Shown: positions 45,001 through 63,000 of the stretch, one piece after another
Numbering within the stretch: the stretch's first letter is position 1
Layout of the letters: each line of letters begins with the position of its first letter
Origin: Mizuhopecten yessoensis
Lineage: Eukaryota
DNA: 64,000 bases
Direction of reading: 5' to 3'
Assembly (NCBI RefSeq): GCF_002113885.1
Contig: NW_018407219.1
Location: 184,302-248,301 of the forward strand
Position numbers: made by a program

Positions 45001-48000
45001 GTGCAAAGTGTCTTATATTGGATTCTAAATTACCAGAAAATTGCACCACATTTCGTGAGCATTCAAGTGACAAAAGTTGTTGCTTTATTTATTTTTGTGT
45101 GAAAAGGATCGTGTGTTATTATCTACCTGGGTTCTCCATAGGAGGGTCCTAACGTTGGTGCTGTCCGAAGTCATAATAAGGCGCAGGTGTAACAAACATT
45201 TTACCTGGCCGTCGACACGTGTGGACGCGGGTCAATAAATCATCGTAGTTTTATTTCCCGGTCAAGTGCAGATAGATGATTTTCACTTTCTCGTGGATTA
45301 TAAACAGTGAAACAGAAAAGTCAATTTGGTGTGGTTTACAGTGATTTTACTACTGTTGTTCAACATTCGTCATTATGCTGGAAGTAGACAGTTACCGCCG
45401 AACACTCCATTCAACAGGTAAGAATAGAACAATAAAAAATCAGATTTTAAAAACCGGAAATTAAGACATTGGATTTAATCATATTGAACACTGGTAAACT
45501 TAACTTAAGTTGAAAGTCTGTTTCTTTTTCTTCTTTGCGATATGCATTTACTATATACATTTACTATATACATTTACTATACATTTACTATATACATTTA
45601 CTATATACAGTTTTTTAAAAAGTTTCATTCAACTTTACTATATTCTTATGACGACTAATTTACACGAGGTTTCGCTAGTTGCAGATAGAATTTTAATAGA
45701 CACATTAGAAATTATTGGAAAATTTTGGACATTCTCTTTATCAAAAATAGTTTGAAATGTAACTGTCAATGGCAATCTATTCATTTTTGATTTCCCCCCA
45801 AACAAAGTCGAAAAAAACACAAATATGAAATAACAATCACAAAAAAATAGAATCCAACAGCATATGCTTAGTGTGAATGATTCTTTATTCTCGTATCCCG
45901 ATGAAACCCAACATTTAAATTCCAAAATATAAGTCATGTGTTGCAATGCTGATGAGATGTGTTATAATTATACTTTTCTATTTCCAAATTAATGATGTAA
46001 GGTGACAAACATGTTCACGCTAACACAAGTTTTCACTAGTTTTAAAAAGTACTTATACTCCATATTATAGAGCTTATTGAAGTATAAATATTCAAAATTC
46101 TTATTTGAAATATTCGCTGATTTCCCAGCGGTACAGCGTAATAGGAATGGTATGTGGACCGCAGTGTTTACTCTGTCTCGCGGTCTCCTGACTCAAGGAG
46201 TTTCCCATGTACCCAACTCGATAGATCACGTTTTACCAGATACAGATTAAAACTAGAAGTGAATTAATGTTATCTGACTGTGGACTGGTGAAGTGACTTG
46301 TCCTACGATCCTTTGCTATCATCTCGTCCGTCTGTACCGTCAATCACGGGGCCGACAGACGCTACCCCGGGTAGACAACCCAGACTTATCCACGACGTGT
46401 ATTTATCTAAGAAATATAAATTATTATTTGACTGGTCTAGATTTCAATCATATGATGTGTTTAAATGTAAGAATACATTGACGAGTTTTACTTCACTCAT
46501 ACGACTTGACCGGAATTCCTATGGAGAGTGTTCCATGTAAGAGTTACCCTAAATCAACGCTAATTTCTGATAATGGTATAATTTTTAAATTAATCTATGA
46601 TATTAACGGTTTCTTAATTAGATATTTGTTATCACCATTTTATTTCATTTCTAGGGTATGACCCGCGGATTCCCATGCCAGAGATGCCAGACTTTGGGGG
46701 CCTACACGAGCCCTTTGCTTACCACGCCCTCTCCGCCGTCAACAAACCAGAGAAACAAAACTCCCTGATCCACTGGTCCCCTCCCCCCGCGACTACCGTC
46801 TCTCCCACCCCAGCGACTGGCGCCAAGTCGGACGAAGAAGATGATGAAGACGACGATGGTAGGTTTTTATTTTCAATTTTAAATGTGATTATACCTAATT
46901 GAAAAAAGTTATTCCAGTCGAATTTAAGGTGTTGTTAATACAATTTGCTTTAATATTCAAAAATAGTGAATATTATTAACAGTTTAGTTAAGGTCATATG
47001 CTACCATACATGTACACGGAGTTCGAGTTATCTCCCTTAAATATATTGCAAGTATTATCAAACAATATCCTCGTGCTATCAATACCTGCATTTTAAATGT
47101 GTCGTCCCTCAATCAACTGTCTCTAATTAGTCTTTTATGGGAGATAAAAAAAAAACAAAGGAAAGGACATGTGTATACCAGAAACTATATGCCTGTTGTA
47201 TAATACTTATATAGTGTGACAAATGCTATATATACACCTGTTCTATACTATCAGTTGACCAGATTTTGTACTAGACATTGTGTGTAAATAGAACACGTAA
47301 CCCTATTGTGACTCTATAAATTAGAAGTATAGAGTGACAGTGATACGTGAATAGGTATTACTTGTCACTTCACAATCTTCAGTAGCTCCACGACTGATCA
47401 TGTAAGGCAGTGTTGTGTCATTGTGACCCCACAAGGAGATGATAAAAAGGAGACTAATCACAGTCTACACATACACAGCGTGTCGTCTAAAGCCTTATGA
47501 TTTCTGCCATATACTAGGTGCTAAATGTACGCGACGCTATAGCTTTGTCTACTTCAGGCCAGGAACATGATCCCACCATTTAATGATATGGTCAGATTTA
47601 ATTGTACAATTGTAAAAGTTACAAAATATCCTTCATGATACAATAATAACAATGATGCTAGCAAGTGGACATCTTAGAAGCTTACGGGATACACAAAACA
47701 AGCATCGTTGCCATATATATTGTACAATTCAGTTAACGTTCGAAACGGGTTACATCCTGTTGTTTTTAGTTCAAATTCGTCGTTGTTTACTTATTTGGTG
47801 ACCGATGGCCGATCATGAAACTAATTTGACATCCGGTTTTACGAGTCGTTTTACGCGCTCGCACGTACAGTGTTGCTGCGATACGGGCCTGGGGGTGACC
47901 ATTCCCGCATAAATTGTGGCTATAAGATAATTATATTTACATCGTTATCATCATTGTCGTAAAAACCGAGGTAAAATGGAAGGAAGGGGCCAACCAGGGT

Positions 48001-60000: not shown

Positions 60001-63000
60001 CCCTGGGAGTCATTCCAGTGTCCACCCTTGGCAGGCCACCAGTAGTAGGGACTTAAGATCATGGAACTACAACCGTCTCTTGTTCAGCTCACAGCCCTCT
60101 CCAGTAGGCTCCCTACAGATTCAAGAAGAGGTCAACTTCAACAGATGTAGAGATGAAATGCCAAATTCAAGGTTGAACTTGGGATGCAAACAATATTTTA
60201 GACCTTTAGGGGAAACAAACCTCAATTTTATTTGGGCAAGCAACAACAACATCGGTCATTCTGCTAGGTCGACTGATGATGACACTTGGTCAACAATAAA
60301 CTCCCAGGACTCCGACACTGAATCCCTCGAGTCGTTTGGAAGTGGCCAATGTATTCAGCAGATAGACATGACAGCCAGTCTGCTGCCTGAGTTTAGTCCA
60401 TATGGTCCAATGTCTCCAGACAGTTTCCGTTGTGACACTCCACACCTTGATCTGATGCATGGATTAGTAAAAGAACAAATGCTCTGTTCTTATGGTGTTT
60501 CTGATAAATGCTGACAAATTTATATTATGTGACATATACTTGACTGGTCATTATAGGGTTAGTCATTATATGTACATTAGTAATCATCTTGATTTGTTCT
60601 TTCATTCAAAGTCATCAGTAACGACGTGCGTGTCGGTATTCGGGTGTTCAAGGTCACTGGTAATGCCGTTTCTGTTTAGGGAAATCAGATATTAGTAGTG
60701 CTGTATGAAATCAAAGTCAATGTTTCGGGGACTCTAGCTCTGTGGTAATTTTATGGGGAGGAATTCAAGTGCAGCCTTAATATTGATGTTTTTGGGAGGG
60801 GCAAAGTCAATGTTGATGTTATTGTTGGGAGGATCGAGGTCAGCAGTGAAGCATGTTAAGATAAGTGCTAATATTTGGGTAAGAACGTTGTAATGTTACA
60901 GTAAAGTTACAAGTGGCTTGTAATGTTTGGGGGGGTTGCATTGGGAATGTTGTTGGGGAGGAATGAAGGTCATTGGCAATGTTGTTAGGGAGGAATGAAG
61001 GTCATTGGTAATGTTGTTAGGGAGGACTCAAGGTCATTGGTAATGTGGTAAGGGGAGAGGGTCTAGGCCATTGGTAATGTTGTTAGGGTGTAATGAAGGT
61101 CATTGGTAATGCTGTAAGGGGAGAGGTTCTAGGTAATTGATAATGTTGTTAGGGGATAGGGTCTAGGTCATTGGTAATGTTGTTAGGGATGAATCAAGGT
61201 CATTGGTAATGTTCTTAGGGAGGAATCAAGGTCCTTGGTAATGTTGTAAGGGGGGAGGGTCTAGGTCATTTGTAATGTTGTATGGGGAGAGGTTCTCGGT
61301 CATTGGTAATGTTTTAAGGGGAAAGGTTCTAGGTCATTGATAATGCTGTAAGGGGAGAGGTTCTAGGTCATTGATAATGCTGTAAGGGGAGAGGTTCTAG
61401 GTAATTGATAATGTTGTTAGGGGAGAGGTTCTAGGTCATTGATAATGTTTTAAGGGGAGAGGTTCTAGGTAATTGATAATGTTGTTAGGGGAGAGTGTCT
61501 AGGTCATTGGTAATGCTGTAAGGGGAGAGTTTCTAGGTCATTGATAATGCTGTAAGGGGAGAGGTTCTAGGTTATTGATAATGTTGTAAGGGGAGAGAGT
61601 CTAGGTCATTGATAATGTTTTAAGGGGAGAGGTTCTAGGTTATTGATAATGTTGTAAGGGGAGAGAGTCTAGGTCATTGATAATGCTGTAAGGGGAGAGG
61701 TTCTAGGTTATTGATAATGTTGTAAGGGGAGAGGGCCTAGGTCATTGATAATGTTTTAAGGGGAGAGGTTCTAGGTCATGGATAATGTTGTAAGAGAGGA
61801 ATCAGTCATTAGTAATGTTGTTGGGGAGGAATCAAAGTAATTGGTAATGTTGTAAGGGGGGAGGGTCTAGGTCATTAGTAATGTTGTAAGGGGAGAGAGT
61901 CTAGGTCATTGATAATGCTGTAAGGGGAGAGTTTCTAGGTCATTGGTAATGCTGTTAGGGAGGAATCAAGGCCATTGGTAATGCTGTTAGGGAAGAATCA
62001 AGGTAATTGGTAATGCTGTTAGGGAGGAAACAAGGTCATTGGTAATGTTCTTAGGGAGGAATCAAGGTCCTTGGTAATGTTGTAAGGGGTGAGGGTCTAG
62101 GTCATTGGTGATGTTGTAAGGGGAGAGGTTCTCGGTCATTGGTAATGTTGTTATGGAGGAATCAAGGTCATTGGTAATGTTCTTAGGGAGGAATCAAGGT
62201 CCTTGGTAATGTTGTAAGGGGATAGGTTCTCGGTCATTGGTAATGTTGTACGGGGAGAGGGTCTAGGTCAGTGGTAATGTTGTAAGGGGATAGGTTCTCG
62301 GTCATTGGTAATGTTGTTAGGGATGAATCAAGGTCATTGGTAATGCTGTTAGGGAGGAATCAAGGTCATTGGCAATGCTGTTAGGGAGGAATCAAGGTCA
62401 TTGGTAATGTTGTTAGGGAGGAATCAAGGTCATTGGTAATGTTGTTAGGGAGGAATCAAGGTCATTGGTAATGTTGTAAGGGGAGAGGTTCTAGGTCATT
62501 GGTAATGTTGTAAGGGGAGAGGTTCTAGGTCATTGGTAATGTTGTAAGGGGAGAGGTTCTAGGTCATTGGTAATGTTGTAAGGGGAGAGGTTCTAGGTCA
62601 TTGGTAATGTTGTAAGGGGAGAGGTTCTAGGTCATTGGTAATGTTGTAAGGGGAGAGGTTCTAGGTCATTGGTAATGTTGTAAGGGGAGAGGTTCTAGGT
62701 CATTGGTAATGTTGTAAGGGGAGAGGTTCTAGGTCATTGGTAATGTTGTAAGGGGAGAGGTTCTAGGTCATTGGTAATGTTGTAAGGGGAGAGGTTCTAG
62801 GTCATTGGTAATGTTGTAAGGGGAGAGGTTCTAGGTCATTGGTAATGTTGTAAGGGGAGAGGGTCTAGGTCATTGGTAATGTTGTAAGGGGAGAGGTTCT
62901 AGGTCATTGGTAATGTTGTAAGGGGAGAGGTTCTAGGTCATTGGTAATGTTGTAAGGGGAGAGGGTCTAGGTCATTGGTAATGTTGTAAGGGGAGAGGTT

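What the first reader, a model, noticed from the sequence alone, without database searches (positions are those of the whole stretch)
45375..60514. Tandem pair of highly divergent Q50 PRD-like homeobox genes not matching canonical families
Seen: two same-strand genes about 3 kb apart, each with a short first coding exon, a phase-1 intron before the homeobox exon and the codon 46/47 intron. Their homeodomains share little beyond core residues (R3, R5, SYT at 7-9, Q12, I19, YP, WFQNRR) and their C-termini look unrelated. Established: the 46/47 intron and Y25-P26 typify PRD-class genes, and spiralians carry lineage-specific, fast-evolving PRD/TALE homeobox genes often expressed in early embryos. 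Inference: an old tandem duplication or mini-cluster of lineage-restricted developmental regulators.
Basis: partly seen in the sequence, partly recalled or inferred. Interest (0 to 1): 0.68.

Follow-up and report, generated by a model that had tools for sequence, protein, structure and literature searches.

The report
Lopx homeobox gene and divergent neighbour
Two real homeobox genes lie side by side in this scallop sequence: one is very probably the already described lophotrochozoan gene Lopx, and the other is a fast-evolving paired-like gene whose homeobox the public gene models seen here either lack or damage.

Summary
The window is Mizuhopecten yessoensis DNA. It holds two same-strand, four-exon homeobox genes 3.25 kb apart. 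All splice sites are GT-AG. Each gene has a phase-1 intron before the homeobox exon and an intron between homeodomain codons 46 and 47. Both have Q50.

Gene A (45375-49974) is identical to a deposited 487-aa protein named 'OTX1-like'. Its homeodomain is strongly conserved: 50-58 of 60 residues are shared with the eight other molluscs compared. Relatives occur in 27 named mollusc records, one nemertean and one annelid. By its range, its 'ceh-37/Otx' mislabels and its conserved flanking motifs, it is very probably Lopx, a family described in 2018.

Gene B (53227-60514, 565 codons) evolves fast. No correct model of it was found. The one matching deposited model lacks four recognition-helix residues and stops early. 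The Pecten and Ylistrum models lack the homeobox entirely.

A and B share 18 of 60 homeodomain residues and nothing outside the homeodomain. In a small tree they fall into separate well-supported clades, and holding them together is weakly rejected (AU p 0.042). So 'mini-cluster' holds, but 'tandem duplication' is unsupported. Interest is modest: one known family plus a new member of a known kind.

The parts
45375..45417 (+). Gene A (probable Lopx) coding exon 1: ATG plus 43 nt, phase-1 donor CAG|gtaaga
   Evidence: Its translation is residues 1-14 of deposited protein P0001. An N-terminus beginning ML/MI is shared by seven of the 11 aligned mollusc orthologues.
46655..46858 (+). Gene A coding exon 2: 204 nt, phase 1 in and out, ends in an acidic run
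   Evidence: It is an exact substring of P0001. No Pfam family matches.
48287..48447 (+). Gene A homeobox exon: conserved proline-rich flank plus homeodomain residues 1-46, phase-0 donor AAG|gtaatt
   Evidence: Pfam Homeodomain E 1.6e-7. Splice sites. It shares 38-45 of 46 residues with the eight other molluscs compared.
48919..49974 (+). Gene A last exon: homeodomain residues 47-60 (Q50) plus a 337-residue tail with conserved islands, stop TGA
   Evidence: 100% identical to P0001 over 351 aa. Conserved islands are shown. A predicted extra helix at residues 203-215 sits in blocks of mean pLDDT 88 and 79.
53227..53248 (+). Gene B coding exon 1: ATG plus 22 nt, phase-1 donor CAC|gtaagt
   Evidence: It scored higher (11 against 9) of the only two phase-1 ATG...GT candidates listed for 50001-56064. 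Its seven residues open deposited model P0054, and the first six also open the 571-aa orthologue P0056.
56065..56282 (+). Gene B homeobox exon: 26 residues of flank plus homeodomain residues 1-46, phase-0 donor AGG|gtgagt
   Evidence: Pfam Homeodomain E 1.6e-8. Splice sites. 100% match to P0054 and 28 of 46 residues shared with P0056.
57209..57516 (+). Gene B exon 3: homeodomain residues 47-60 (T47, Q50) and a linker. It ends at a phase-2 donor AG|gtaagc. If unspliced, a TAA at 57518-57520 ends the frame.
   Evidence: P0056 carries the full recognition helix. The Pecten and Ylistrum models P0031 and P0032 start at a Met inside this exon and read across into exon 4.
57221..57221 (+). Second AG acceptor, 12 nt downstream of the 57209 acceptor. 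Deposited model P0054 uses it and so removes homeodomain residues 47-50.
   Evidence: translation from 57221 matches P0054 at its residue 81.
59365..60514 (+). Gene B last exon: 382 codons, in frame with the phase-2 donor, predicted disordered, with a conserved acidic/serine C-terminal island, stop TGA
   Evidence: 48% and 46% identity to Pecten maximus and Ylistrum balloti models. Collinear with P0056. No Pfam family. In the model of orthologue P0056, residues 100-571 have pLDDT below 50.

Best explanation
The region holds two separate, intact homeodomain transcription-factor genes on the + strand of the Yesso scallop genome.

Gene A is the scallop orthologue of a slowly evolving homeobox family found across lophotrochozoans, very probably the family published as Lopx. 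It encodes:
- a Q50 homeodomain preceded by an acidic run and a proline-rich flank;
- a short conserved helix followed by a lysine-rich stretch (a likely nuclear-localisation or DNA-backbone contact region);
- several short conserved islands in an otherwise disordered tail, likely cofactor-docking motifs.

Gene B is a different, fast-evolving paired-like Q50 homeobox gene. It has a long disordered tail ending in a conserved acidic/serine island, a likely activation motif.

Shown here: gene structures, homeodomain identity, predicted three-helix fold, conservation patterns, and the faults in the public models.

Inferred from general homeodomain knowledge: both bind TAAT-type sites through helix 3 and regulate transcription in development.

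The adjacency is best read as linkage of two distinct lineage-restricted homeobox families. It does not look like a duplicate pair.
For: Gene models:
- GT-AG introns with compatible phases.
- Gene A equals deposited protein P0001.
- Gene B is collinear from end to end with the 571-aa orthologue P0056, and with the Pecten and Ylistrum models across the exon 3/4 junction.

Homeodomains:
- Pfam matches at E 1.6e-7 and 1.6e-8.
- W48, F49, Q50, N51 and R53 are present in both.
- AlphaFold2 models show three helices over the homeodomain. These are residues 100-148 of P0001, with block mean pLDDT up to 94, and residues 46-102 of P0056, with block means 64-79.

Gene A family:
- A profile of 11 mollusc orthologues found 37 proteins at E<=1e-5 among 7,999 scored candidates. 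Of these, 27 are named mollusc records, 1 a nemertean, 1 an annelid and 8 unnamed.
- Source names include ceh-37 (2), ceh-36-like, OTX1-like, OTX5-like and ocelliless-like.
- This matches the published description of Lopx as lophotrochozoan-only and mislabelled Otx/ceh-37, with a conserved N-flank and C-terminal motif and a M. yessoensis member (passages and section 13 of PMC6118893).

Gene B:
- An exhaustive phmmer of its homeobox exon against 1.84 billion representatives gave 26 hits at E<=1e-3.
- Only P0054 (self, 100%) and P0056 (56%) are close.
- The next single-domain relatives, P0063, P0075 and P0078 (35-40 bits per domain), all end at homeodomain residue 46. That is what a shared 46/47 intron would give.

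Separate origin:
- In the tree the Lopx clade has support 100/100 (11 rows).
- The B clade has support 96/88 (4 rows).
- The AU test of Lopx+B as one clade gives p 0.042.
Against: - The Lopx assignment rests on a description, not on sequence. The paper's figure and supplementary alignment could not be seen.
- The tree has 37 rows and 60 columns. Its reference rows are unnamed top hits to gene B, with no curated canonical families. 19 of 34 inner branches are unresolved, and p 0.042 is marginal.
- The B clade joins Otx-like and Pax-like rows with only 41/76 support, so 'paired-like' rests mainly on the intron position and on weak nearest-neighbour evidence.
- No transcript data were available, so gene B's junctions rest on conservation and on models deposited by others.
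- One deposited model (P0054) uses a different acceptor and stops at 57520.
- No expression or DNA-binding data were seen for either gene in this species.
Confidence: 0.75

Rival explanations
1. Gene B is a tandem duplicate of Lopx. After duplication it diverged so fast that only the homeodomain core and the intron layout still show the relationship.
For: - Same strand, 3.25 kb apart, four coding exons each.
- Both have a phase-1 intron before the homeobox exon and a 46/47 intron.
- Shared S7-Y8-T9, I19 and Y25-P26.
- The linkage is kept in scallops. The Ylistrum models carry consecutive LOC numbers on one 495-kb contig, and the Pecten models share one 53-Mb contig.
Against: - 18 of 60 homeodomain residues are identical, and nothing is alignable outside the homeodomain.
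- The phase-1 introns lie at different distances from the homeodomain: 9 residues upstream in A against 26 in B.
- phmmer with either homeobox exon fails to list the other family.
- No Lopx representative is among the 26 hits to B's exon.
- Separate starred clades and AU p 0.042.
Confidence: 0.15
2. Gene B is not a working DNA-binding factor in this species. Its transcript uses the acceptor at 57221 and ends at the TAA at 57518-57520, as in deposited model P0054. That would give a 179-aa protein without W48/F49, either a decaying gene or a non-binding isoform.
For: P0054 is exactly this product. Both AG acceptors are present 12 nt apart.
Against: - The upstream acceptor has the better pyrimidine tract (tttttcag).
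- The orthologue P0056 keeps the full recognition helix.
- The 382-codon exon 4 is open, in frame with the phase-2 donor, and conserved in three relatives. Two of those models read across the same junction.
Confidence: 0.07
3. Gene A is what its database names say: an Otx/Esx/Nobox-type canonical PRD-class gene.
For: - Source names such as OTX1-like, ESX1, NOBOX-like and ocelliless-like.
- OTX2 is the top solved-structure match.
Against: - The OTX2 match is only 22 bits at E 0.0014, against 46-103 bits to the gene's own family.
- Residue 50 is Q, whereas Otx proteins carry K50 (recalled).
- The names disagree across sources. They also include ROC4-like, proboscipedia and unc-4.
- The 2018 paper describes exactly this mislabelling.
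Confidence: 0.03

Closest known systems
Lopx (LOPhotrochozoan-only homeobox; Barton-Owen et al. 2018, PMC6118893)
   Same: Applies to gene A.
- Lophotrochozoan range (molluscs, a nemertean, an annelid).
- Automatic names of the Otx/ceh-37 type.
- A conserved flank N-terminal to the homeodomain and conserved C-terminal motifs.
- A M. yessoensis member is listed in that paper's figure legend.
   Different: Nothing contradictory was found. However, no published Lopx sequence could be compared, because the figure is not held and supplements are closed. The 46/47 intron seen here would fit a PRD affinity.
Non-canonical spiralian PRD clades I-VIII (Paps et al. 2015, PMC5322547; Barton-Owen et al. 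2018)
   Same: Applies to gene B. It is a divergent homeodomain without a companion domain. It has no match to canonical families, it is lineage-restricted and fast-evolving, and its nearest relatives share the 46/47 exon end.
   Different: Which clade, if any, could not be tested because the sequences are only in supplements. The one motif quoted in the text, SPQQVRS for Clade VI, is absent from both homeodomains.
Eutherian ETCHbox genes (Argfx, Leutx, Dprx, Tprx), fast-evolving PRD-class derivatives of CRX (abstracts in the listing)
   Same: An analogy for gene B: rapid homeodomain divergence within one family of animals, and frequent mis-annotation.
   Different: - No parent gene is identified for B.
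- No tandem array: the window has exactly two homeoboxes.
- No expression data.
- Unrelated lineage.
Otx / ceh-37 (the names attached to gene A in databases)
   Same: Homeodomain fold. The weak top similarity is to OTX2, CRX and ceh-37 chains.
   Different: Scores are only 20-22 bits, residue 50 is Q, and no shared motifs were seen outside the homeodomain.

Membership tests
Homeodomain superfamily (Pfam PF00046) | Profile match above the curated cut-off | tested here: met
   A exon scores 31.5 bits and B exon 34.7 bits against a cut-off of 22.9, even though each exon holds only residues 1-46.
Homeodomain superfamily (Pfam PF00046) | Three-helix fold with W48, F49, N51 and R53 in helix 3 | tested here: met
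   The residues are present in both. Three helices are predicted in P0001 (identical to gene A) and in P0056 (orthologue of gene B). The scallop gene B product itself was not folded, because its exons were not joined.
PRD class (paired-like) | Intron between homeodomain codons 46 and 47 (typical of the class, not exclusive; recalled) | tested here: met
   A: 48447|48919. B: 56282|57209. Both are phase 0.
PRD class (paired-like) | Groups with PRD-class homeodomains in a phylogeny | tested here: inconclusive
   The B clade joins Otx-like and Pax-like rows at only 41/76. Lopx stands apart on a long branch. The reference rows were unnamed and few.
PRD class (paired-like) | Companion paired domain or OAR motif (present in only some families) | tested here: not met
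   No Pfam family other than Homeodomain and Homeobox_KN passed E<=0.01 in any of the six exon translations scanned (the two short first exons were not scanned). The only other row was EGF_Sp38_C at E 0.051.
Lopx | Restricted to lophotrochozoans | tested here: met
   Applies to gene A. All 29 of 29 named hits are lophotrochozoans (27 mollusc records, 1 nemertean, 1 annelid), and 8 further hits are unnamed. The search was word-indexed and length-limited, so absence elsewhere is not proven.
Lopx | Mislabelled Otx/ceh-37 by annotation pipelines | tested here: met
   Source names include ceh-37 (Plakobranchus, Elysia), ceh-36-like (Patella), OTX1-like, OTX5-like and ocelliless-like.
Lopx | Conserved N-terminal flank and a C-terminal motif unique to the family | tested here: inconclusive
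   Gene A's family has a conserved proline-rich flank and several C-terminal islands. One island recurs in the nemertean protein. Whether these are the published motifs cannot be checked, because the figure is not held.
Lopx | Sequence identity with published Lopx entries, including the M. yessoensis one | not testable with these tools
Canonical PRD families with solved structures (Otx/Crx, Alx/aristaless, Phox2, Pax3/6/Paired, Gsc, Pitx, Prrx, Hesx1, Dux) | High homeodomain similarity to the family | tested here: not met
   The best scores are 22.0 bits (A, OTX2) and 24.6 bits (B, CRX). Families without a solved structure (recalled examples: Hbn, Rax, Otp, Vsx, Uncx, Shox) were not covered.
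Spiralian PRD Clade VI (Paps et al. 2015) | Motif SPQQVRS in the sequence | tested here: not met
   The motif is quoted. It is absent from both homeodomains as printed.
Spiralian PRD Clades I-V, VII, VIII | Grouping with the clade's published members | not testable with these tools
   The sequences are only in the closed supplements of PMC5322547 and PMC6118893.

The most novel reading that the evidence does not exclude
Gene B founds a previously unrecognised, rapidly evolving homeobox family that stays physically linked to Lopx in scallops. Its homeobox is absent from, or damaged in, every public model seen here. The two AG acceptors 12 nt apart at the start of helix 3 may give a switch between a DNA-binding isoform and a helix-3-deleted, non-binding isoform. 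If B descends from Lopx or shares regulation with it, the pair would be an invertebrate counterpart of the CRX-to-ETCHbox story.
Probability: 0.12. Interest if true: 0.55.

Novelty: new member of a known kind. Interest (0 to 1): 0.3.

Why it matters
Lineage-restricted homeobox genes are candidates for the regulators behind spiralian-specific development.

Gene A adds little. It is an annotated gene of a family named in 2018. The added points are its exon structure, including the 46/47 intron (useful for deciding the class of Lopx), and a set of conserved extra-homeodomain motifs.

Gene B matters at the level of annotation and cataloguing. In the three scallop species whose models were seen, the models either lack the homeobox or delete part of helix 3. 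Homeobox surveys built on those models would therefore miss it.

The Lopx-B linkage gives a concrete locus for testing how fast-evolving homeobox genes arise next to conserved ones.

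Tried and rejected
- The scallop genome paper (PMC10970998) is not held.
- Atlas look-alikes gave leads only. The homeodomain of P0056 is nearest to NOBOX (0.86) and goosecoid-2 (0.83) clusters, both under the 0.9 level. Gene B's last exon has a best score of 0.79 and low recognition, with no family.
- Rfam found 0 matches at gathering score in the whole window.
- An AATAAA scan found + strand signals at 50491 and 50733 after gene A, and none after gene B's stop within the window. 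The motif is no commoner than chance overall (105 against a mean of 84.6; 2 of 100 shuffles reached 105).
- AlphaFold2 models showed no folded domain outside the homeodomains, apart from one short helix in gene A's product. No fold search was run.
- Profile-profile comparison of the two families aligned the homeodomain only (probability 76.9%, 53 columns).
- A literature search for PRD-like, lineage-specific mollusc homeobox genes listed nothing closer than the two spiralian surveys. A whole-word search for 'Lopx' found 7 papers, of which I read the two on spiralian genomes (PMC6118893, PMC8848322).
- The first tree script stopped on an empty row. It was rerun without that row (P0070) and with only the first domain of P0055.
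No eukaryotic genome DNA was available for synteny.

Full report
**Source and layout**

The last exon of gene A is 100% identical over 351 residues to a deposited Mizuhopecten yessoensis protein. That protein is P0001, 487 aa, named 'homeobox protein OTX1-like' by NCBI and 'ESX1' by UniRef. The window is therefore Yesso scallop DNA.

It is AT-rich and full of tandem repeats, with one N run at 18562-19129, which I left alone. A six-frame scan for the recognition-helix pattern finds exactly two sites, at 48922 and 57212 on the + strand. Upstream on the same strand, a PHD-finger exon at 23431-23616 best matches the last PHD finger of PHF10. A Tc1-type transposase remnant lies at 12570-13340.

**Gene A structure**

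Reading the DNA and checking by script gives four coding exons:

| Exon | Coordinates | Length |
|---|---|---|
| 1 | 45375-45417 | 43 nt |
| 2 | 46655-46858 | 204 nt |
| 3 | 48287-48447 | 161 nt |
| 4 | 48919-49974 | 1056 nt |

All introns are GT-AG. Phases are 1, 1 and 0, and the total is 1464 nt. Each exon translation is an exact substring of P0001 at the expected offset. The homeobox is split between residues 46 and 47. Pfam Homeodomain matches exon 3 at E 1.6e-7.

**Gene B structure**

- The homeobox exon is 56065-56282. It has a phase-1 acceptor and a phase-0 donor after residue 46, and Pfam matches at E 1.6e-8.
- Exon 3 is 57209-57516. It starts at residue 47 and ends in a good phase-2 donor.
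- Exon 4 is 59365-60514. It is in frame with that donor and is open for 382 codons.
- For the first exon, a scan of 50001-56064 for ATG-initiated frames ending in a phase-1 GT donor listed two candidates. The better one is 53227-53248.

The total is 1698 nt, or 565 codons plus stop. I searched the models exon by exon and did not search or fold a joined gene B product.

**Outside support for gene B**

An exhaustive phmmer of the 72-residue homeobox exon against 1.84 billion representatives gave 26 proteins at E<=1e-3.
- P0054 (179 aa, 100% identical) opens with the seven residues of the proposed first exon. It uses an AG acceptor 12 nt further on, at 57221, so it lacks homeodomain residues 47-50. 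It then stops at the TAA that overlaps the exon-3 donor.
- P0056 (571 aa, 56% identical in the exon) opens with the same first six residues and carries the whole recognition helix. It is collinear with all four window exons to the C-terminus.

Searching exon 4 found only two proteins at E<=1e-3 among 900 candidates: Pecten maximus LOC117322861 (383 aa, 48%) and Ylistrum balloti LOC132542993 (363 aa, 46%). Neither has a Pfam domain. Both begin at a methionine inside exon 3 and read across the exon 3/4 junction. This supports that junction and shows these models are cut off 5' of the homeobox. No full, correct model of the scallop gene appeared in the 210-669 aa range searched.

**What gene A is**

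Eleven mollusc orthologues align with an almost invariant homeodomain and flank. Further conserved islands lie in the tail, and the last residue is an invariant leucine. Against the window's gene A, homeodomain identity is:

| Compared with | Identical residues of 60 |
|---|---|
| The two other scallops | 58 |
| Six other bivalves and gastropods | 50-54 |
| The nemertean protein | 40 |
| The annelid protein | 41 |

A profile search found 37 proteins at E<=1e-5 among the 7,999 candidates scored. They are 27 named mollusc records, Lineus longissimus (Nemertea, E 1.3e-33), Owenia fusiformis (Annelida, E 6.2e-30) and 8 unnamed. The nemertean protein also keeps two of the tail islands. Source names are inconsistent: OTX1-like, ESX1, ROC4-like, NOBOX-like, proboscipedia, ceh-37, ceh-36-like, OTX5-like, ocelliless-like and unc-4.

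Barton-Owen et al. 2018 (PMC6118893; I read passages and section 13) describe Lopx as follows:
- It is a lophotrochozoan-only family.
- Pipelines label it Otx/ceh-37.
- It has a conserved N-terminal flank and a unique C-terminal motif.
- Its listed members come from M. yessoensis, Lottia, Patella, Biomphalaria and others.
- It is left unclassified.

A snail genome paper likewise counts Lopx as one gene outside the 11 classes (passage). Gene A fits every stated feature. The published sequences are in a figure and supplements that I could not see, so I put the assignment at about 0.8.

**What gene B is**

Its homeodomain keeps the structural core, but it shares only 38 of 60 residues with its orthologue P0056. 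Its tail is 46-48% identical between scallop genera, against 85-86% for gene A's last exon. It therefore evolves much faster than its neighbour.

- The best solved-structure matches are PRD-class chains (CRX, PHOX2B, ALX4, Paired) at 21-25 bits.
- Per-domain phmmer scores put three unnamed exon-only proteins next after P0056: P0063, P0075 and P0078 at 35-40 bits. All three end at residue 46.
- In a 37-row, 60-column tree, the window exon, P0056, P0063 and P0075 form a clade with support 96/88. That clade joins Otx-like and Pax-like rows only weakly (41/76).
- Paps et al. 2015 (section 12 read) and Barton-Owen et al. 2018 define non-canonical spiralian PRD clades I-VIII. Which one, if any, holds gene B could not be tested. 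The only motif quoted in the text (Clade VI) is absent.

**Are A and B duplicates?**

- They share 18 of 60 homeodomain positions.
- BLASTP and profile-profile comparison align nothing else.
- Local phmmer with either homeobox exon does not list the other family among the 79 stored proteins.
- Lopx forms its own clade with support 100/100.
- The best tree holding Lopx and B together is 9.2 log-likelihood units worse, with AU p 0.042. I named that group before seeing the tree.

The test is weak. The alignment is short, the reference rows are unnamed hits chosen by likeness to B, and long branches are present. Linkage is nevertheless kept in scallops: the Ylistrum models carry consecutive LOC numbers on one 495-kb contig, and the Pecten models share one 53-Mb contig.

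**How they most likely work**

AlphaFold2 with the family alignments predicts the three homeodomain helices in both families.
- P0001: residues 100-148, with block mean pLDDT up to 94.
- P0056: residues 46-102, with block means 64-79.
- The rest is disordered, except a helix at P0001 residues 203-215 followed by a lysine-rich helix of low confidence.

From general homeodomain knowledge (recalled), Q50 domains read TAAT-type sites through helix 3. The conserved islands in disordered tails are likely docking or activation motifs. This part is inference, and I saw no functional data for either gene.

**Verdict**

These are lineage-restricted, non-canonical Q50 homeobox genes in a two-gene cluster. 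One of them is an already named, slowly evolving family. The duplication link is not supported.

What is new is modest. It consists of a corrected four-exon model for a fast-evolving paired-like gene that public models lack or damage, and its conserved linkage to Lopx in scallops.

**Left unchecked**

- Transcripts.
- Synteny outside protein-record hints.
- Curated phylogeny.
- Supplementary data of the two survey papers.
- The closed contig collections.
- The identity of the unnamed proteins.

Noticed in passing
window 23431-23616 (+): A PHD-finger exon. Its best solved-structure match is the C-terminal PHD finger of PHF10 (E 1e-14). A PHF10-like gene therefore ends about 22 kb upstream of gene A on the same strand.
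   Followed up: partly
window 12570-13340 (+): A 257-codon open frame with Tc1/mariner-type transposase domains (HTH_Tnp_Tc3_2 and DDE_3). It is probably a transposon remnant.
   Followed up: partly
window 57209 and 57221 (+): Two AG acceptors lie 12 nt apart at the start of gene B's recognition helix. A deposited 179-aa model uses the downstream one and so loses homeodomain residues 47-50. This is either an annotation slip or a real non-binding isoform.
   Followed up: partly
window 58716-58872 and 53544-53655: Near-perfect hairpin inverted repeats lie inside gene B's introns. One has 50-nt arms, 94% complementary and 2 nt apart, nested in a 31-nt outer pair. The other has 45-nt arms, 96% complementary, around an A/T run. 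They look like MITE-type insertions.
   Followed up: no
window 374-1032, 21312-22463, 27533-29415, 30888-32058, 32846-35653, 41743-42761: Long tandem or satellite-like repeats give spurious open frames of 100-490 codons on both strands. Weak Pfam hits to these frames (PCC_BT, Collagen) are compositional.
   Followed up: no
window 60001-64000: Strong excess of G over C on the + strand just after gene B (GC skew 0.42 and 0.69). The cause was not examined.
   Followed up: no
window about 60455-60514 (+): After a conserved proline/histidine motif, the scallop gene B tail runs about 18 residues further than its three relatives, which all stop a few residues after that motif.
   Followed up: no
P0055, P0057, P0071, P0073 (library proteins, not the window): Several top hits to gene B's exon are unnamed proteins with 2-6 tandem, near-identical homeodomains. 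Their high scores are sums over repeats, not closeness.
   Followed up: partly
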